Assembly (NCBI GenBank): GCA_000092065.1
Contig: CP000585.1
Length of the DNA: 64,000 nt
Strand: one strand, 5' to 3'
Source of the DNA: Ostreococcus lucimarinus
Taxonomy: Eukaryota
Shown here piece after piece: positions 47,910 through 55,046 of the stretch (positions within the stretch are counted from its first letter, which is position 1; each line of letters begins with the position of its first letter). Below the pieces are notes generated by a model, which was given only the letters and a program-made list of their open reading frames with translations, was not told where the DNA came from and ran no database searches. Both the position numbers and the translations under genes were made by a program.

Positions 47910-48471
47910 GTGCGGGACGCGCGAGACGAGACGGACGCGAGACGAGACGGAGACGGAGACGACGCGAAAACGACGACGATGGCGCGAGACGACGAAGGCG
48001 CGGTGACTGACGGTGACGCGCGACGCGCGGGTCGGGGCGCAGGGATACTCGACGGCGACGGCGACGGCGAGCGGGACGCGCGCGCGCGGACGACCGGCGA
48101 CGGCGAGCGGGCGCGGAAGACCGAGAAAGGCGCCGAGCGCGCGGGAGGTGGCGATGAAGCGCGAATGCGAGGTGCGCGGGCGACGGCGACGCGCGCGCGA
48201 CGCGCGCGCGGCGGCGAACGCGACGCCGATCGACGCGGGGAAAAGTCGGCTGGGGTCGGAGGGACTCTTTGACGAGTCACGACCCGTCGATCGTTTGAAA
48301 CCACAGCCGTCCGACCGACCGACCTGATCCGACGGCGCGAACCGGCGGTTGGGGTCGCGCGGGCGACGCGCGCGGGACGGCGACGGTTTCGTTCGGTTCG
48401 CGAACGCGCGGAAGACGATCGAGCGCGTGACTGACTGTGTGCGCGAACGCGCGCGTGATAAGGCGACGCAG

Positions 48472-49563
48472 GAAACGGATGAGAATCGAAGCGCGACGTT
48501 ACTGAGCGGACAAGATTTGCTCAAGCGCATTCGCGCGCAGTACGCGTCGGACGACCGTCCGTATCAGGCGTTTTTACAGACGTTGATTAAGTTTAGGAAC
48601 AAGCAGTTCAGCGCGGAAGAGGTGGTGCAGAAGTGTGCGATATTGTTTTATGATCATCCGCAGTTATTGGAGGGTGAAAATGGGTTGGCCACCTTTGTGC
48701 CGAAGACGTGCAAGCCGCCGACGCGGTCGTCGTGGTTCGAGTGGAGTCCGGCGGTGCATCATCGCTTCAGCAGCGAGAGCTTTCGATTGTTCGTGCGCAC
48801 GTTGTTATTGTGTGAGTATAAAAGTCGCTTAACGCCGCCGGAGCCGAAGATGCGGCGTTGGCGTCTGACGGATGGCGACAGTAGCGAGTCGGATAGCGAC
48901 GACTACACGTCGTCGGACGAGAGCGAAAGCGAGAGTTCGACGGTGATAGAAAAAGAGTCTGGCACGCTTCGACCGGATCAAATTCCCGATCGATGGGTGG
49001 GTAAAATACACGACCGAACGTTGAGCGCGTTCGAGCGCCTGACTTTAGAGCTCAAACCGAAAGACGAAGAGTATTGCTGGGCCGACACCAAGGCGGCGCG
49101 CGAAGCCAAGGAGAGCAAGGACGCGATCGAACTTCGGGGCAAGCGCGGTCGCGGCGAAGAGCGAGATTTCACGACGACGCCTCGAGATTCACCATCACCG
49201 CCGCCGTCGTTTAATAAACGGCGCGCGAGCGCTCGCATCGTGGCCAAGGTGAACCGAGGCATCGTGTACAACCGCTATCGCAGCTTGGCGTCCCCCGACG
49301 GTCTCTCGCGCGGTCGCATGCGCATGACGCGATCGATGAGCACGGTGGACGACACCTTGCCCGCCAAACCAGATCGCAAGTTCTTGATCAATCGTGACGA
49401 AGGCAAGATGTCCCCGCTGTGCGCCGAGCGCATCGGATTACACTCCCTGCCCGCCGTCGCGCTCGAGAAAATCATCGCGTGCTACAGCGCGCAAGAGGGC
49501 GTCGCCGAGCTCAATCAAATTCGCGAGTCTCTGATCAAATCGCTCATAAAAAATAATAGGTAA
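48472..49563 (+). CDS. Sin3-like PAH protein, last exon (PAH2 plus a Ser/Asp-rich C-terminal region)
   Basis: The acceptor is gcgacgcag|GAAACG with gtGACTGACtg 38 nt upstream. PAH2 is [63 protein letters not shown]. The frame differs from exon 2, which requires an intron ending here. Confidence 0.6.
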
Positions 49564-49780
49564 CGAAGCACGCGCGCGCGCCGCCGCACGGCGCGCGATC
49601 GATGTAAAGGCTATCATACATGTGGCATTAAACTCGTCCGAGCGCGTCAAGACCTACCTCCGCGATCCGCCCTCGCGCGCGCGATCCCCGCGCGCGCGTC
49701 TCCCCTTCCCCGCGTCTCGCCGCGCGCGCGCGCCTCGGCGCGAAAACGCGTCTCTACCGATCCTTCGCGCCGTCGCGCGC

Positions 49781-49951
49781 TCAGTGCCCGCCCGGATTCA
49801 CAAACTTGCTCGCCTTTTTGTCCGCCTCCGTGATTCCCATCGTCGCGTAGACCACCGCCACGCCGACGGCGCCGATGCCGGTGAAGAACGGCCACGCCTT
49901 GGGGATCTCGCGCGTGAGCGCCGACAGAAAGCTCGTGTTCGCGTGCGGCAT
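49781..49951 (-). CDS. Small single-TM protein (56 aa), candidate plant-type mitochondrial ATP synthase 6 kDa subunit
   Basis: MPHANTSFLSALTREIPKAWPFFTGIGAVGVAVVYATMGITEADKKASKFVNPGGH. The WPFxxGxxxxG...G(I/L)TEE(D/A)xKxSKFV pattern resembles my recollection of the Arabidopsis mitochondrial ATP synthase 6 kDa subunit. The ATG at 49951 was verified. It lies in the 490-bp gap between the PAH gene and the Rab gene. Confidence 0.4.
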   Translation of the reverse strand: MPHANTSFLSALTREIPKAWPFFTGIGAVGVAVVYATMGITEADKKASKFVNPGGH

Positions 49952-50055
49952 CGGTGCGGCGCGCGGATTCGTGAGGCGTGCGCGAGGTCGAGGACGCGCG
50001 ACGGTGTCTGCGGTCTTCACATCGCGACGCGACGCGAACGCGCGACGCCGACGCC

Positions 50056-50667
50056 ATGACGAGCGACGACGCGCGCGCGTACGATCACCTGGTGAAAATC
50101 CTCCTCGTCGGCGACTCCGGGGTCGGGAAGTCGTCGCTGCTCGCGCGATTCATCAGCGATTCGTTCGACGAGCAGGGCCCGACGGTGGGCGTGGACTTTA
50201 AACTGAAACACGTCGACGTCGACGGGACGAGGCTGAAGCTCACGGTGTGGGACACCGCGGGACAGGAACGGTTTCGAACGCTGACGAGCTCGTATTACAG
50301 AGGCGCGCACGGGGTCGTGTTCGTGTACGACGTGACGTCGAGGGAAAGCTTTGAGAACGCGCGCGAGACGTGGCGAAAGGAGGTGGAGATGTACGGAACG
50401 ATCGCGAATTCGGTGAAGATTGTGATTGGAAATAAGATCGATAGGGAAGATGAACGAACGGTGGCGCGGAAGGAGGGCGTGGCGTTCGCGAAGGAGTATG
50501 GGTGCTTGTTTCTGGAGTGCAGCGCGAAGACCAAGGTGCGCGTGGCGGAGGCGTTCGACGAGTTGGTCAAGGGGATTTTGGACGCGCCGGGGTTGTTGGT
50601 GGACGAAGTCGACGATGGGGTGAAACTCGGCGCGTATGCCGATCGCGCGGGCGGTGGGTGCTGCTGA
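50056..50667 (+). CDS. Small GTPase, Rab18-like
   Basis: LLVGDSGVGKSSLL (G1), TVGVDF (effector), WDTAGQE (G3), GNKID (G4), SAK (G5) and a C-terminal GGGCC prenylation motif. Overall similarity is to Rab18 (FRTLTSSYYRGAHGV). The ATG at 50056 was verified. Confidence 0.85.
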   Translation: MTSDDARAYDHLVKILLVGDSGVGKSSLLARFISDSFDEQGPTVGVDFKLKHVDVDGTRLKLTVWDTAGQERFRTLTSSYYRGAHGVVFVYDVTSRESFENARETWRKEVEMYGTIANSVKIVIGNKIDREDERTVARKEGVAFAKEYGCLFLECSAKTKVRVAEAFDELVKGILDAPGLLVDEVDDGVKLGAYADRAGGGCC

Positions 50668-50859
50668 AGAACGCGAGCGGTACCGCGCCGTCGCGGGCGA
50701 GGAAGGAAATGAAACTCGCCGCGACGCATGTTGTAATCTAGAGATAGTATTGAAAGATCTTCAAAAAGCTACAGGCGCGCTCTCGGATCGGTCGAGACAT
50801 GGTTCGTCGCCTCGACGTGTCGCGAGCGCATTTTTACGTGTACAAACATCGACTCGCAT

Positions 50860-51312
50860 CTAGAGTGGCGCGGCGATGACTGCCTCATACTTCTTAACCG
50901 TCGTCATCAACGAGAGATCGAAGAACTTTTCGCCGATGCTCGCCGTCAAACCACCGATCAATCGAGGGTCAACCACGGCCTCGATCTTCAGCGTCGAGCC
51001 CGATGGGGCGTGGCCCTTGATGGATTCCGTAACCTTGGTGAGCTGCGCCGGGGTGAGCGCCTGCGCCGTCGTGATGACGCACTTCACCTCGTTACGGGAA
51101 GCCATGCATTGCTCTTCGAAGCGAAGCGAAATCTTGTGCAACTCCTTCAGCCGTCCGTACTCCGCCATCGTGGCGACGAAGTTGCTCGTGATCGGCGTAA
51201 ACTTCGCGCCCGCGCAAAATTCCTTGACGCCCGCCAACTTCTTGCTCTTCGCCATCGACGGATCCATCAGAAACTGCTTAAACTTGAGATCTTTCTCGAC
51301 CAAAGCCGTGAG
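50860..51312 (-). CDS. ATP5O: ATP synthase OSCP (F1Fo subunit O/delta), exon 3
   Basis: ...AVVDPRLIGGLTASIGEKFFDLSLMTTVKKYEA is the OSCP C-terminal signature. The exon begins at a tgtag|CTCACGGCT acceptor in phase 0. The intron is 51313-51430 with GACTGAC 27 nt upstream of the AG. Confidence 0.75.
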   Translation of the reverse strand, partial: LTALVEKDLKFKQFLMDPSMAKSKKLAGVKEFCAGAKFTPITSNFVATMAEYGRLKELHKISLRFEEQCMASRNEVKCVITTAQALTPAQLTKVTESIKGHAPSGSTLKIEAVVDPRLIGGLTASIGEKFFDLSLMTTVKKYEAVIAAPL

Positions 51313-51430
51313 CTACATCGATGAAATCACGCGCGCGTCGATCGTCGTCAGTCACTCGTCCTCGTCTCGCCGTCGTCGTTCCGTCCCCTCTCTCTCGCGC
51401 GCGTCGCTCGTCTCGCGCTTTCAAACTCAC

Positions 51431-51535
51431 CTGCGCCACTTCACTCTCAACCGCGGCCAAAGACCCAGCCTTCGTCGCCGCGACGTACAACGCCGTGGCG
51501 TACCGTCCGCTCGTCCCGAATTGTTGCAAAGGCGC
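51431..51535 (-). CDS. ATP5O: ATP synthase OSCP, exon 2 (APLQQFGTSGRYATALYVAATKAGSLAAVESEVAQ)
   Basis: GRYATALY...A.K is the conserved OSCP N-terminal helix. The donor is GCGCAG|GTGAGT and the acceptor is cgacgcag|GCGCCTTTG, with an in-frame TGA just upstream. The M of the ORF is TTG, so it is not a start. Confidence 0.65.
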
Positions 51536-51846
51536 CTGCGTCGTTCCGCCCGCGTCCCAAAGTCAGTCCCCGCGCCCGATCCCCCCCCCCCCGCGCCCAC
51601 GCCTCGCCGTCCCGTCCCTCGCCCTCGTCCATCGCGTCCTCGAATTTCCCACGCACCTTCACGTCCCCCCCGCTCGCCCCCTTCGCGCTCGCCGTCGCGT
51701 ACGTTCGCTGCGAAGCGTCGTCGTCCGTCAGTCCTCGCGCGTCCCGATCGAATCTTCGCGCGCGTCGTCGCGCGTCGCCGTCGCGCGTCGCCGCGCGATT
51801 CGCGTCGCGTCGCATCGCGCGAATTTCGTCTCGCGCGTTCGCGCAC

Positions 51847-51894
51847 CTCGAGCGTCGATCGCGCGGTCGCGCATCGCGCGAGTCGTCGAAGCAT
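51847..51894 (-). CDS. ATP5O: Candidate first exon of the OSCP gene (MLRRLARCATARSTLE: start codon plus a short mitochondrial presequence)
   Basis: The ATG at 51894 was verified. The donor is GAG|GTGCGC, in phase 0 with exon 2. The joined product MLRRLARCATARSTLE-APLQQFGTSGRYATALY mirrors the presequence-to-mature junction of other OSCPs. The implied intron 1 (51536-51846, 311 bp) contains GACTGAC 24 nt upstream of its AG and a C12 homopolymer. Confidence 0.35.
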
Positions 51895-52058
51895 CGCGTC
51901 GTCCGCGTGTGCGGGTCGCGCGCGCGCGGGTCGACCGCGCCGCGCGGAAATCGCACGCGCGCGCGGCGCCGAGCTCGTAACACCAAAGACCAAAGCCGGC
52001 GCGCGTCCATCGCGCGCGGCACACGCGCGCGCGACGGCGAGCGCGCGCGACGACGCGC

Positions 52059-55046
52059 ATGGCGCGACGACGCGAGCGCACGCGTCGACGCGCGCGCTCG
52101 CGCGCGCGATGGACGCTCGGCGTCGTCGGAAGCGCGGTCTGCGCCTGCGCGACCGCGATCCGAGGCGCGCGCGCGGGCAACGCCATCGGCGCGGCGCTGC
52201 GCGCGACGGGAGGCGCGACGCGCGATGGGCGCGATGGTGGACGGGAAAACGATGGCGCGCGCGGGACGACGCGAGCGAGCGCGAGGGCGAGCGATGGGGC
52301 GAACGCGGTGGGCGTGGAGGAGCTGGACGAGAACGCGCGCGAGAGCGAAACCGCGGCGGCGATTCGTTCGGGCGCGCGGGTTCGATTGACGGACGCGCGA
52401 GCGCGAGAGATGCTGAGTGGGACGATGATGGCGATGTACGGTGGCTTAGGGGAGACCGGGGAGACGACGAATTCGATGGACGTGCTCGTCGGGAGCGGGA
52501 GCGGGGATTATCTGGCGTGGTGTCGACGCGGCGAGCGCGCGAGCGCGGCGCCGGCGGTGGCGAGTGTGGGCGCGGCGGTGCACGCGGACGCGAACAAAGT
52601 CATGTTTCACGGCGGGTACAAGGTTTGGGACGCTGGCAGCGAGTTTGAGGACTTTGCCTCGACGCGCGCGTTTGATATGAAGACGGGTGAGTTTGAATGC
52701 CTCACCGCCGGAACCGCCGAAAACGAAAAGGCTGCGCTGGGCCAGACCCACGGCGCGTGCCCGAAACTCCACGGCGCGCACACTGGTAAGCGCGACGAAG
52801 AAGTGGCCGTCATTACCACTAAGCCGATTCGTTTGCCGAAAGCAGTGGCGAAGAAAGAGACGGCTCACGTCGAGGCCGCGCTCGGTAAACACTTGACTCG
52901 CCCAGAGCTTCCCGCGATCGACGTCGAAGACGAGGAAGACGACGCGACAACGAGCTCTGTTGAAGAAACTACCGATGGCGAAGGTGCGTCTGAGCTGGGC
53001 AGTGAGTCCAAGCAGCACGCCATGATCATCTTTGGTGGTCGCGACGAGAACGACCAACGCTTGGACACCGTCTACGCGCTCGGTCTCGAAGACAAGAAAT
53101 GGCGGAAGATTGAGTACGAACTTCCAGACGAGCGAGACGACATGGTGCCCCAAGGACCGTTTGAAATGCCACTCATCGTGAAGAACGAGCATAAAAACGG
53201 GAAACCGTTTCCGCTTGGGCGTTCGGGCGCCACCGCGGTGGTGACCAAGGACAATAAGATGATTATTTACGGCGGCTTTGTCGTCGAGGGCCGCCTCGGT
53301 TTCAACGTCGGTGAAACGCTCGTGCTTGATTTAGATAAGATGAAGTTCAGCTACCCGATGACGAGTGGCTCTATTCCAGTTCGTCGTAACAAACACTCTG
53401 CAGTTCTTGACAACGAGAATCGCATGTGGATGTGGGGCGGTTCGGTTTGGGATCACACCGGAGGTAGCTCGACGTATGCGTCCACGGCGACGTACTACGC
53501 CGACGTGAGCAACCCCAAGTCCATCGTATGGCATCGTGTGGAAACGAAAGGCAAACCGCCGAGTCAGCGTCGATTCCATTCAGCCATCATCGTGGACGGC
53601 GGCATGTACATCATCGGCGGTGAAGACTATCGCACTCGGACGTACCTGAACGACGTCCACAGGCTCGACTTGAAGACGTTCACTTGGACGCAGCCCGCTG
53701 TTCTAGGTGGTCTCGAAGGTGGTCGAATCCGTTCGAGCATGTTCCCGTGGGTAACGGATGCGTTCAAGAAGCTGGCGCATCCTGAGGCGAGTTTAGGCAA
53801 GTCTCACCACGAGCACACGCACGACGACAAACACGAAGAAGATTTGAAGCGGAAGGTCTCGATCAAGGACGCGGATGAGGAAAAGCCAAAGGATGAAAAA
53901 AAGGACGAAACTAATGCTTTTTCGATCGACATTTCTACGTGCGGCAAAGGTGAACAGGCGCGCGTGCGCACCGGCGAGAACCAGCCTGAAATTGAGAACT
54001 TGATCTCGGTGCTCGTCGATGGTTCAACTTTGGCTTCCAAAAACGGAGCTCTCGGCGCGGAAGACCCGACCGACGCCGCATCGTTGGCAGCTAGTCTCGC
54101 TAGCAATGGCTGGCTTGCAAACACTGCTCGTGGAGCCTCGATTATGTCTGAATCCAGCATGGTGTGGCGCAAGGCGCCGAGTGTCGGCGAAAGCGAAGGC
54201 GTCCCGGGTTGGATCACTGATGCCGGCGGGCGCGATAGTTCGATCTTGACTGAAACTCTCGACGCAGATCCGGATGCGGCGAGCATCGAGGAGCGATTAC
54301 TCGCCGCCGTCAAGGCAGTGTCTAGTGACACAAAACTTAAGTCGAGCGGCGGTAGCGCGCACGCGGTGAAGAAATCTGAAACCAAGGAACACGAGAAAGC
54401 ATCGCCGAAGAAGCGCGTCGACTCAGAAGATGAAGATGACGAAAAGAAGACAAAGAAGAGTTCGCATCACGAGTCTTCGCCTCATCACAAATCATCGCGC
54501 GACCACGACGACGAGGACGAAGATGCCGAGGAGCCTAAATCCTTGAAATCGTCGCATCATAAGTCGTCCAAAGAGGCCAACCACGAGGATGACGACGAGG
54601 AATCGGAACACAAGACACATCACGGTTCTCGCCACAAAGACGAAGACGAAGACGAAGACGAAGACGAATCACGACACTCGTCTCACTCTCACTCGGCGTC
54701 TCACAAGAAGGAAAAGGTTCACCTCTCTGGTGCGGCCAAGATGCTTCAGATGATTCAATCCCAAGGTGCCGATGAGGCGAGGCTGGGTCGGGTCGCGAAC
54801 ATTCGCGCCGGCGACTCGGCACGTCACTTTTACTTGTGGAGCGGCGTCGCTCTGGTGGCGATCGCTGCGGCGATTCTTATCAACCAAAAGAAGACCGAGA
54901 AGAAGCAAGAGAGTGACGTCGAGCGAATTCCCTTAGTTTTGAGTAGCTCGTCGATCTCTGACTCGCCAAACAAGAGCGCCACGTGGCAGCAAGAAGCGTT
55001 AGCTCGCAGAGGGGTCAGGTATGGCGACGATTTTGACGAGCCATAG
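52059..55046 (+). CDS. Kelch-repeat (galactose-oxidase-like beta-propeller) protein with an N-terminal signal-like segment, an acidic His-rich tail and a C-terminal TM anchor
   Basis: Kelch-like blades include KVMFHGGYKVWD..., HAMIIFGGRDENDQRLDTVYALGLEDKKWRKI, KMIIYGGFVVEG..., RMWMWGGSVWDH... and GMYIIGGEDYRTRTYLNDVHRLDLKTFTWT. The tail is HHKSSKEANHEDDDEESEHKTHHGSRHKDEDEDEDEDESRHSSHSHSASHKK. The TM is YLWSGVALVAIAAAILI. The ATG at 52059 was verified. Confidence 0.65.
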   Translation: MARRRERTRRRARSRARWTLGVVGSAVCACATAIRGARAGNAIGAALRATGGATRDGRDGGRENDGARGTTRASARASDGANAVGVEELDENARESETAAAIRSGARVRLTDARAREMLSGTMMAMYGGLGETGETTNSMDVLVGSGSGDYLAWCRRGERASAAPAVASVGAAVHADANKVMFHGGYKVWDAGSEFEDFASTRAFDMKTGEFECLTAGTAENEKAALGQTHGACPKLHGAHTGKRDEEVAVITTKPIRLPKAVAKKETAHVEAALGKHLTRPELPAIDVEDEEDDATTSSVEETTDGEGASELGSESKQHAMIIFGGRDENDQRLDTVYALGLEDKKWRKIEYELPDERDDMVPQGPFEMPLIVKNEHKNGKPFPLGRSGATAVVTKDNKMIIYGGFVVEGRLGFNVGETLVLDLDKMKFSYPMTSGSIPVRRNKHSAVLDNENRMWMWGGSVWDHTGGSSTYASTATYYADVSNPKSIVWHRVETKGKPPSQRRFHSAIIVDGGMYIIGGEDYRTRTYLNDVHRLDLKTFTWTQPAVLGGLEGGRIRSSMFPWVTDAFKKLAHPEASLGKSHHEHTHDDKHEEDLKRKVSIKDADEEKPKDEKKDETNAFSIDISTCGKGEQARVRTGENQPEIENLISVLVDGSTLASKNGALGAEDPTDAASLAASLASNGWLANTARGASIMSESSMVWRKAPSVGESEGVPGWITDAGGRDSSILTETLDADPDAASIEERLLAAVKAVSSDTKLKSSGGSAHAVKKSETKEHEKASPKKRVDSEDEDDEKKTKKSSHHESSPHHKSSRDHDDEDEDAEEPKSLKSSHHKSSKEANHEDDDEESEHKTHHGSRHKDEDEDEDEDESRHSSHSHSASHKKEKVHLSGAAKMLQMIQSQGADEARLGRVANIRAGDSARHFYLWSGVALVAIAAAILINQKKTEKKQESDVERIPLVLSSSSISDSPNKSATWQQEALARRGVRYGDDFDEP

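What the first reader, a model, noticed from the sequence alone, without database searches (positions are those of the whole stretch)
49781..51894. Two mitochondrial ATP synthase subunit genes lie 0.9 kb apart: a 3-exon OSCP gene and a candidate plant-type 6 kDa subunit
OSCP is split into three exons (16 + 35 + 150 codons); the ORF-track Met codons are TTG artefacts. The proposed 16-codon first exon (MLRRLARCATARSTLE) supplies both the ATG and a presequence. The 56-aa ORF on the same strand (WPFFTGIGAVGV...GITEADKKASKFV) resembles the plant-specific 6 kDa Fo subunit; small ORFs like this are routinely missed by annotation pipelines. The two genes flank the Rab18-like gene, which is on the opposite strand. 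Clustering of two ATP synthase subunit genes would be notable if real.
Basis: partly seen in the sequence, partly recalled or inferred. Interest (0 to 1): 0.5.

Follow-up and report, generated by a model that had tools for sequence, protein, structure and literature searches.

The report
Two linked mitochondrial ATP-synthase subunit genes
In the green picoalga Ostreococcus lucimarinus, the gene for the OSCP stalk subunit of the mitochondrial ATP synthase (four exons, not three) lies 0.9 kb from a 56-codon gene that is a true relative of the land-plant "6 kDa" ATP-synthase subunit. Both genes are already public gene models and the linkage looks like inherited local gene order, so the finding is largely right but ordinary.

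Summary
The window is Ostreococcus lucimarinus CCE9901 nuclear DNA.

**OSCP gene.** It is real and of the mitochondrial type, on the minus strand at 51894-50860. It has FOUR exons (16+17+35+150 codons). The 218-aa product is identical to XP_001417984.1 and collinear with O. tauri OSCP.

**56-codon ORF.** This ORF (49951-49781, minus strand) is XP_001417983.1, annotated "predicted protein". It is under purifying selection (dN/dS 0.13-0.19) and has one transmembrane helix. It is a robust homologue of the land-plant "mitochondrial ATP synthase 6 kDa subunit / small subunit 6":
- a profile search over 1.84 billion proteins reached named plant members;
- hhalign gave 99.5 % probability;
- the plant HMM scored it 33.7 bits, against at most 17.7 bits in 100,000 shuffles.

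A further link to yeast subunit j (PF04911) is consistent but below threshold.

**Linkage.** The gene between them is a Rab18-like GTPase on the opposite strand. OSCP-Rab-6 kDa linkage is conserved in all Ostreococcus clades and in Bathycoccus-like contigs, and in rearranged form in Micromonas. Unrelated flanking genes are conserved too. The most economical reading is ancestral Mamiellales microsynteny, not a functional cluster.

**Verdict.** Correct in the main and already annotated, adding only a functional name for an uncharacterised small protein. Low to moderate interest.

The parts
49781..49951 (-). CDS of a 56-aa single-pass membrane protein (MPHANTSF...KFVNPGGH). It is a homologue of the land-plant mitochondrial ATP synthase 6 kDa subunit (small subunit 6) and equals XP_001417983.1 'predicted protein'.
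   Evidence: ORF; identity to the deposited protein; homology to named plant 6 kDa subunits; dN/dS 0.13-0.19; hydrophobic segment at residues ~20-41; AF2 helices 8-15, 20-37, 42-47.
49952..50055 (.). 104-bp spacer between the divergently oriented start codons of the 6 kDa gene and the Rab18-like gene. Presumed shared bidirectional promoter region (inferred).
   Evidence: Read from the sequence. No promoter test was made.
50056..50667 (+). Single-exon Rab18-like small GTPase gene (203 aa, C-terminal ...GGGCC prenylation motif).
   Evidence: PF00071 Ras, 192.8 bits; best solved-structure match Rab-18 1x3s_A, 191 bits, against 175 bits for Rab-1B.
50860..51312 (-). OSCP exon 4 (150 codons plus stop).
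   Evidence: PF00213 covers residues 42-211 of the spliced product.
51313..51430 (-). OSCP intron 3 (118 nt, GT..AG, CTGAC branch motif). Absent in some related lineages.
   Evidence: contiguous tblastn across this junction in L023, L050 and L066/67.
51431..51535 (-). OSCP exon 3 (35 codons, APLQQFGTSGRYATALY...).
   Evidence: 84-97 % identity across Ostreococcus lineages.
51536..51656 (-). OSCP intron 2 (121 nt, GT..AG, CTGAC; contains a run of 12 G on the minus strand).
51657..51707 (-). OSCP exon 2 (17 codons, RTYATASAKGASGGDVK).
   Evidence: splice sites, phase 0; present in the deposited O. lucimarinus and O. tauri proteins; its last residues align with the N-terminus of mammalian OSCP; conserved island between diverged introns, with an in-frame 3-nt indel.
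51708..51846 (-). OSCP intron 1 (139 nt, GT..AG, CTGAC).
   Evidence: only low-complexity CG-rich similarity elsewhere in the window, so it is not a repeat family.
51847..51894 (-). OSCP exon 1 (16 codons, MLRRLARCATARSTLE; start codon and the first part of the presequence).
   Evidence: 83-98 % identity, against 6-69 % in the 5' flank.

Best explanation
The region holds three ordinary nuclear genes of Ostreococcus lucimarinus. (1) A four-exon gene encodes mitochondrial OSCP. Its Arg-rich N-terminus (exon 1 plus most of exon 2) is inferred to act as the import presequence. The mature protein caps F1 and joins it to the peripheral stalk, as in all mitochondrial F1Fo ATP synthases (inferred from family membership). 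(2) A Rab18-like GTPase gene lies on the other strand. (3) A 56-codon intronless gene encodes a single-pass inner-membrane peptide that is the prasinophyte orthologue of the land-plant '6 kDa' Fo subunit (ATP synthase small subunit 6; AT3G46430/AT5G59613 type). It most likely sits in the membrane part of Fo next to the stator subunits, in the way fungal subunit j does. That last equivalence is suggested, not proven. The proximity of the two ATP-synthase genes is best explained as an ancestral piece of Mamiellales gene order, retained together with unrelated neighbours in very compact genomes, and not as an operon-like functional cluster. In Ostreococcus the 6 kDa gene shares its 104-bp upstream spacer with the Rab gene, not with OSCP. 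Shown: gene structures, homologies, purifying selection and conserved linkage. Inferred: presequence function, physical presence of the peptide in complex V of this alga, and absence of regulatory meaning in the linkage.
For: Organism and existing annotation: exact matches to XP_001417983.1 and XP_001417984.1 on an 847,696-bp O. lucimarinus record. OSCP: PF00213 at 143.6 bits; mitochondrial OSCPs are the top solved structures (122 bits) against chloroplast delta at 46 bits; the four-exon product is identical to the deposited protein and collinear with O. tauri; exon/intron conservation contrast. 6 kDa: a profile of 6 Ostreococcus-type sequences, searched against 1.84 billion proteins, gave 46 hits. 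These included land-plant proteins at library-wide E 9e-5 to 7e-4, among them P0093, which its source names 'mitochondrial ATP synthase 6 kDa subunit [Hordeum vulgare]'. Close relatives are named 'ATP synthase small subunit 6, mitochondrial'. hhalign of the algal against the plant alignment gave 99.5 % probability, E 4e-22, and 98 % with the narrow alignment. The full-length alignment is essentially gap-free, with invariant R14 E15 P21 F22 G25 G30 S48 F50. The plant-only HMM scores the peptide 33.7 bits, against maxima of 11.8 and 17.7 bits in 2 x 50,000 shuffles. dN/dS is 0.13-0.19 and there is one hydrophobic segment. The helix-TM helix-helix model has pLDDT 76.5. The 6 kDa protein is listed as an Fo subunit of Arabidopsis ATP synthase (10.1101/2021.02.02.429459). 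Synteny: OSCP(+)-Rab(-)-6 kDa(+) occurs in every Ostreococcus lineage sampled, in O. tauri and in Bathycoccus-like contigs of 49.5 % GC. In M. pusilla-type contigs the 6 kDa gene lies directly upstream of OSCP. In M. commoda-type contigs it is 5.5 kb upstream, with the kelch gene in between. The PAH-domain, kelch, Deg-protease, cyclophilin and GYF neighbours are conserved as well.
Against: There is no direct evidence here that either mRNA is spliced as modelled, and none that the peptide is in complex V of Ostreococcus. The window peptide has no Pfam hit, no solved-structure relative by sequence and no informative fold match. The equivalence with yeast subunit j rests only on sub-threshold PF04911 matches (at most 20.2 bits against a 24-bit cut-off), on one source-given name 'ATP synthase subunit J', and on a 30 %-probability hhalign hit over 15 columns. 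The 6 kDa gene changed sides relative to OSCP-Rab between Ostreococcus and Micromonas yet stayed close and on the same strand as OSCP. This is somewhat more than passive synteny predicts and leaves room for selection on linkage.
Confidence: 0.8

Rival explanations
1. The linkage is functional. OSCP and the 6 kDa/j-like subunit are kept together in Mamiellales, with or without the Rab gene, because a shared chromatin or regulatory domain coordinates their expression.
For: Linkage persists across Ostreococcus, Bathycoccus-like and Micromonas contigs despite a local rearrangement. Both genes stay on the same strand, and in M. pusilla-type contigs they are immediate tandem neighbours about 0.5 kb apart. 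By my own rough estimate, chance adjacency of any two of about 12 nuclear complex V genes within two gene positions in a genome of about 7,600 genes is only a few per cent.
Against: Unrelated neighbours (PAH, kelch, Deg protease, cyclophilin, GYF) are conserved in the same blocks. All occurrences trace to one ancestral event. In Ostreococcus the genes are separated by an opposite-strand gene and share no promoter. No linkage was seen in the non-Mamiellales loci that had flanking sequence (L058, L061, L064). No expression data were examined.
Confidence: 0.12
2. The first reader's three-exon OSCP (exon 2 skipped) is the real or a co-existing isoform. Skipping is in-frame and would give a 201-aa protein.
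For: Exon 2 is 51 nt and phase 0-0, so skipping keeps the frame. No RNA data were available here.
Against: The deposited O. lucimarinus and O. tauri proteins both include it. It is a conserved island with an in-frame indel between diverged introns. Its end aligns with the N-terminus of mammalian OSCP. It has canonical splice sites and a CTGAC branch motif.
Confidence: 0.05
3. The 56-aa peptide is a conserved small membrane protein of another complex or pathway, and its resemblance to the 6 kDa subunit is compositional.
For: There is no Pfam or PDB hit for the peptide itself. Single-TM peptides easily give spurious similarity. One family member gave a weak COX7a hit (E 0.16).
Against: 33.7 bits against the plant-only HMM, versus at most 17.7 bits in 100,000 shuffles, including shuffles that preserve the segments. 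hhalign 99.5 %. Conserved motifs lie outside the TM helix (R-E, TE[EA]D-K-SKF). Both families have the same length and are collinear from Met1.
Confidence: 0.04

Closest known systems
Land-plant mitochondrial ATP synthase 6 kDa subunit (ATP synthase small subunit 6; Arabidopsis AT3G46430/AT5G59613)
   Same: Same length (55-59 aa) and collinear from Met1. One TM helix. Shared R-E-x3-5-WPF-x2-G-x4-G ... TE(E/A)D-K-(N/A)SKF motifs. 20-37 % identity, hhalign 99.5 %. Nuclear-encoded.
   Different: The N-terminal third differs (MPxxNxSF... against M(K/R)xFDPWPVFF...). The C-terminus ends NPGG(S)H instead of a basic tail. No biochemical evidence exists for the algal protein. Plant members are called 'plant-specific', with function 'not exactly defined'.
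Fungal ATP synthase subunit j (Atp18; Pfam PF04911 ATP-synt_J; chain 6b2z_i), the 'i/j' subunit regarded as ancestral to eukaryotes (PMC10214729)
   Same: Similar size and a single TM helix opening with a basic residue and WPF. PF04911 is the only Pfam family hit repeatedly: 9/22 algal and 6/12 plant members, always in the same register. One Micromonas-type member is named 'ATP synthase subunit J' by NCBI.
   Different: All scores are below Pfam's gathering score (at most 20.2 against 24 bits). The window peptide itself gives no hit. hhalign against the yeast sequence gives only 30 % over 15 columns. Membership is therefore unproven.
Mitochondrial OSCP (bovine/ovine ATP5PO, yeast Atp5; O. tauri XP_022838983.1)
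   Same: PF00213 across residues 42-211. 78 % identity and equal length (218 aa) with O. tauri. E 2.6e-34 to mammalian OSCP, starting at the conserved (V/L)(K/R)xP(L/V)Q..G motif.
   Different: Nothing of note. Intron content varies among relatives: intron 3 is absent in some Ostreococcus, Bathycoccus-like and Micromonas contigs.
Polytomella ASA8 (6rd4_8), assigned as chlorophycean i/j by structure (PMC10214729)
   Same: Single-pass Fo peptide ending in ...GGH. hhalign places the TM helices in the same register.
   Different: No significant similarity (hhalign probability 1 %; no PDB hit with the family profile).

Membership tests
OSCP/delta family (PF00213), mitochondrial type | Match to the family profile above the curated cut-off | tested here: met
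   143.6 bits against a 22.3-bit cut-off, residues 42-211.
OSCP/delta family (PF00213), mitochondrial type | Closer to mitochondrial OSCP than to chloroplast or bacterial delta | tested here: met
   Mammalian OSCP 122 bits, yeast 70, Polytomella 68; chloroplast delta 46; bacterial delta at most 52. Named relatives include O. tauri OSCP and fungal subunit 5.
OSCP/delta family (PF00213), mitochondrial type | Cleavable N-terminal mitochondrial presequence | not testable with these tools
   The N-terminus MLRRLARCATARSTLERTYATASAKG is Arg-rich with no acidic residue before E16. Similarity to mature OSCP starts at about residue 30. No targeting predictor or import assay was available.
Plant mitochondrial ATP synthase 6 kDa subunit (small subunit 6) | Significant sequence homology to named members | tested here: met
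   P0093 barley '6 kDa subunit' hit at library-wide E 2.3e-4; hhalign 99.5 % and 98 %; 33.7 bits against at most 17.7 in shuffles.
Plant mitochondrial ATP synthase 6 kDa subunit (small subunit 6) | About 55-60 aa, a single TM helix, collinear over the whole length | tested here: met
   alignment with only terminal gaps and one 2-residue insert in P0006; TM at about 20-41.
Plant mitochondrial ATP synthase 6 kDa subunit (small subunit 6) | Physical subunit of the Fo sector of complex V | not testable with these tools
   Needs proteomics or a structure. For Arabidopsis it is stated in 10.1101/2021.02.02.429459.
ATP synthase subunit j / i/j (PF04911) | Match to PF04911 at or above the gathering score (24 bits) | tested here: not met
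   The window peptide has no hit at E<=1. The best relatives reach 20.2 bits. 9/22 algal and 6/12 plant members have sub-threshold hits in the same register.
ATP synthase subunit j / i/j (PF04911) | Profile-level similarity to a structurally verified j or i/j subunit | tested here: inconclusive
   hhalign against yeast Atp18 (sequence verified against 6b2z_i): 30 % probability over 15 columns. Against Polytomella ASA8 (verified): 1 %. The family profile against PDB found nothing. Fold searches were uninformative.
Rab18 subfamily of small GTPases | Ras-family domain, best match to Rab18, and a C-terminal prenylation motif | tested here: met
   PF00071 192.8 bits. Rab-18 1x3s_A is the top hit at 191 bits against 175 for Rab1B. 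The sequence ends GGGCC. No phylogeny was made, so 'Rab18-like' is as far as this goes.
Functional (co-regulated) gene cluster | Shared promoter or transcript, or linkage conserved beyond that of unrelated neighbours | tested here: inconclusive
   There is no shared promoter in Ostreococcus, since an opposite-strand gene lies in between. Linkage is conserved across Mamiellales, but so are unrelated neighbours. Expression was not tested.

The most novel reading that the evidence does not exclude
Selection, not inertia, has kept the OSCP gene and the 6 kDa (j-like) Fo subunit gene linked since the Mamiellales ancestor. The small gene changed sides of the OSCP-Rab pair between Bathycoccaceae and Micromonas, yet stayed within 0.5-5.5 kb and on the same strand. 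This would point to a co-regulated mini-cluster of stator subunits in picoeukaryote genomes.
Probability: 0.1. Interest if true: 0.45.

Novelty: new member of a known kind. Interest (0 to 1): 0.22.

Why it matters
The practical gain is annotation. An 'uncharacterized/predicted protein' in Ostreococcus and Micromonas reference genomes (XP_001417983.1, XP_002502480.1, XP_003056960.1) can be named as the 6 kDa / small subunit 6 of mitochondrial ATP synthase. Metagenome pipelines currently mislabel it as 'GH24 lysozyme', 'ribosomal protein L28' or 'GlcU'. The result also shows that the so-called plant-specific 6 kDa subunit predates land plants. It reaches the earliest-branching green algae and gives repeated, though sub-threshold, matches to fungal subunit j. 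This fits the published view that nearly all small Fo subunits are ancestral to eukaryotes (PMC10214729). The gene linkage is a tidy synteny marker for Mamiellales but has no demonstrated functional meaning.

Tried and rejected
1. Pfam on the 56-aa peptide gave no hit.
2. PDB sequence searches found nothing relevant. I tried the peptide, the narrow profile, the plant profile and the broad profile. No plant-type 6 kDa chain is detectable among solved structures.
4. hhalign against yeast subunit j gave 30 % and against Polytomella ASA8 gave 1 %. Neither is enough to claim membership.
5. I tested whether the OSCP introns are repeat or 'introner' copies. Only low-complexity CG-rich matches occur elsewhere in the window, so this was rejected.
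6. Rfam and tRNA scans of 49400-52200 and 48000-53000, looking for example for intronic snoRNAs, found nothing. There was one chance-level miRNA hit at E 0.5.
7. Chloroplast delta as the identity of the OSCP gene was rejected.
8. An upstream in-frame start for the small ORF was rejected. One related metagenome protein, P0001, has an N-terminal extension. In this window the only upstream in-frame start is a GTG, the extension is not conserved, and Met1-Pro2 is the conserved N-terminus.
9. A literature search for an explicit '6 kDa = subunit j' statement failed. The likely source (Röhricht et al. 2021, BBA) is not held, and the Sinha & Wideman supplements are not held.
Full report
**Identity of the window.** The region is GC-rich (about 63 %) eukaryotic DNA. 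The 56-aa ORF is identical to XP_001417983.1/ABO96276.1 'predicted protein [Ostreococcus lucimarinus CCE9901]'. The spliced OSCP product is identical to XP_001417984.1/ABO96277.1. Both lie on an 847,696-bp record. Both genes of the finding are therefore existing public gene models.

**OSCP gene.** Reading the minus strand and assembling exons gives four exons:
- exon 1, 51894-51847 (16 codons)
- exon 2, 51707-51657 (17 codons)
- exon 3, 51535-51431 (35 codons)
- exon 4, 51312-50860 (150 codons plus stop)

The three introns are 139, 121 and 118 nt. Each has GT..AG ends and a CTGAC motif 20-35 nt before the acceptor.

Evidence for exon 2:
- The 218-aa product equals the deposited protein.
- It is collinear, at equal length, with O. 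tauri OSCP (78 % identity).
- In a DNA alignment with three other Ostreococcus lineages, exon 2 is 98/71/71 % identical. The flanking introns fall to 88-89 %, 37-50 % and 41-44 %. The only exon 2 indel is an in-frame 3-nt one.
- The last residues of exon 2 (..DVK) plus the start of exon 3 (APLQQFG) align with the N-terminal KLVRPPVQIYG of mammalian OSCP.

The protein matches PF00213 at 143.6 bits. It is of the mitochondrial type: mitochondrial OSCPs score 122 bits against 46 bits for chloroplast delta. The Arg-rich first ~25 residues are taken to be the presequence; this is an inference.

**The 56-aa ORF.**
- *Coding status.* The ORF runs 49951-49781 on the minus strand and encodes MPHANTSFLSALTREIPKAWPFFTGIGAVGVAVVYATMGITEADKKASKFVNPGGH. 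It is a real gene. It is intact in all related contigs, with dN/dS 0.13-0.19 at dS about 1 against other Ostreococcus clades. It has one hydrophobic segment at residues ~20-41. AF2 predicts helix 8-15, TM helix 20-37 and helix 42-47 at pLDDT 76.5.
- *Direct searches.* Direct Pfam and PDB searches are empty. A word-based protein search found only close relatives.
- *Profile search.* A profile of six such sequences (A1), searched against 1.84 billion representatives, returned 46 proteins at E <= 1e-3. The series runs from Micromonas/Bathycoccus-type sequences through other algal ones to land-plant proteins of the type MKTFDPWPVFFRREWRRNWPFLTGFAITG..TEEDLKNSKFVQEHKKH.
- *Names from sources.* Sources name the land-plant proteins 'mitochondrial ATP synthase 6 kDa subunit' or 'ATP synthase small subunit 6, mitochondrial'. 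One such named protein, barley P0093, was itself a direct hit of the Ostreococcus profile.
- *Profile-profile comparison.* Algal against plant alignments give 99.5 % probability, E 4e-22; with the narrow alignment the figures are 98 % and E 2.6e-13. The joint alignment is collinear from Met1, with invariant R14 E15 P21 F22 G25 G30 S48 F50.
- *Composition control.* An HMM built from land-plant sequences alone scores the window peptide 33.7 bits. The maxima are 11.8 bits over 50,000 full shuffles and 17.7 bits over 50,000 segment-preserving shuffles.

The Arabidopsis 6 kDa proteins (AT3G46430, AT5G59613) are described as 'plant-specific' Fo subunits of undefined function (10.1101/2021.02.02.429459).

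**Relation to subunit j.**
- *For the link.* PF04911 (ATP-synt_J) is the only Pfam family that recurs among family members. It is hit by 9 of 22 algal and 6 of 12 plant sequences, always over the K-x-WPF...G start of the TM helix. All scores are below the 24-bit cut-off; the best is 20.2 bits, E 4e-4. NCBI names one Micromonas-type member, in a MAG labelled 'bacterium', 'ATP synthase subunit J'.
- *Against the link.* hhalign against yeast Atp18 gives only 30 %; I recalled that sequence from memory and verified it against 6b2z_i. hhalign against Polytomella ASA8 gives 1 %; that sequence was verified. Fold searches are uninformative.

Sinha & Wideman (PMC10214729) argue that i/j is one of 17 ancestral subunits and that short subunits are often unpredicted. 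My data fit 6 kDa = i/j but do not prove it.

**The gene in between.** The + strand ORF from ATG 50056 to 50667 encodes a 203-aa Ras-family GTPase (PF00071, 192.8 bits). Its best solved relative is Rab-18 (191 bits). It is head-to-head with the 6 kDa gene (104 bp between start codons) and tail-to-tail with OSCP (192 bp between stops).

**Is the clustering meaningful?** The order OSCP(+)-Rab(-)-6 kDa(+) recurs in:
- every Ostreococcus lineage recovered from metagenomes;
- O. tauri;
- Bathycoccus-like contigs of 49.5 % GC.

Micromonas differs. In contigs carrying the exact M. pusilla CCMP1545 protein XP_003056960.1, the small gene lies directly upstream of OSCP on the same strand, with the Rab gene after OSCP. 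A likely OSCP first exon starts about 0.5 kb after its stop. In M. commoda-type contigs it is 5.5 kb upstream, with the kelch gene in between.

Linkage is thus ancestral to Mamiellales and survived a local rearrangement. However, the unrelated neighbours are conserved in the same blocks: the PAH-domain gene, kelch gene, Deg-type protease, cyclophilin and GYF gene. All cases derive from a single ancestral arrangement. Loci outside Mamiellales that have flanking sequence show no OSCP nearby (L058, L061, L064).

My rough estimate of chance adjacency uses my own assumed numbers: about 12 nuclear complex V genes, about 7,600 genes, within two gene positions. It gives an expectation of about 0.03-0.04 per genome. 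That is unusual but unremarkable given how many functional categories could have been noticed. I therefore favour retained microsynteny (about 0.8) over selected co-regulation (about 0.1).

**Verdict.** There are three corrections:
- OSCP has four exons, not three.
- The small gene is already annotated, though unnamed.
- 'Plant-specific' should read 'green-lineage-wide, probably the i/j subunit'.

Novelty is limited to assigning a function to an uncharacterised small protein and noting a Mamiellales synteny marker.

Noticed in passing
L068 7019-7272 (O. tauri CAID01000005.2, syntenic position): The O. tauri orthologue of the 6 kDa gene is annotated as a 61-aa product over a 254-nt range. The uninterrupted ORF there is only 45 aa (MFAALAKQWPFFTG...LHPGGH) and lacks the conserved MPYxNxSF N-terminus. 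Either the N-terminus is truly shortened or the gene model is wrong.
   Followed up: partly
window 51313-51430; L023, L050, L066/L067, L068: OSCP intron 3 is present in this window, O. tauri and M. commoda-type contigs. It is absent (exons 3 and 4 contiguous) in one Ostreococcus clade (L023), one Micromonas-type contig (L050) and Bathycoccus-like contigs. This is intron gain/loss polymorphism within Mamiellales. Three introns in about 0.6 kb is, to my recollection, unusual for an intron-poor genome.
   Followed up: partly
protein clusters: Small-subunit homologues carry wrong names in public sources. Micromonas-type 57-aa proteins are labelled 'GH24 family phage-related lysozyme (muramidase)' by JGI. 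Plant-type ones are labelled 'large subunit ribosomal protein L28' and 'glucose uptake protein GlcU'. Ostreococcus- and Micromonas-type copies (MDA9766707.1, MDB9925195.1) sit in MAGs labelled '[bacterium]', so eukaryotic contigs have been binned as bacteria.
   Followed up: no
window 49952-50055: The 6 kDa gene and the Rab18-like gene are head-to-head with only 104 bp between their start codons, implying a very compact bidirectional promoter. A minus-strand ATG at 50057 overlaps the Rab start codon (ATG 50056-50058) within a CATG palindrome.
   Followed up: no
window 52059-55046 (+) and 48349-49563 (+): The flanking genes are a 995-aa kelch-repeat protein with a long acidic and His/Ser/Lys-rich C-terminal half and a predicted C-terminal hydrophobic segment, and a PAH (paired amphipathic helix) domain protein. 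Both are syntenic across Mamiellales.
   Followed up: partly
window 51579-51590: A run of 12 C on the + strand (12 G in the transcript) lies inside OSCP intron 2. The related clade-A contig L011 has the run interrupted.
   Followed up: no
cluster 3 (P0163): A 112-aa protein containing the M. pusilla-type 6 kDa sequence, with a 5'-leader read-through, is filed in EukProt under Pelagococcus subviridis. This is probably Micromonas contamination of that data set. To my recollection the set is transcriptome-derived, which would also be indirect evidence that the small gene is transcribed.
   Followed up: no
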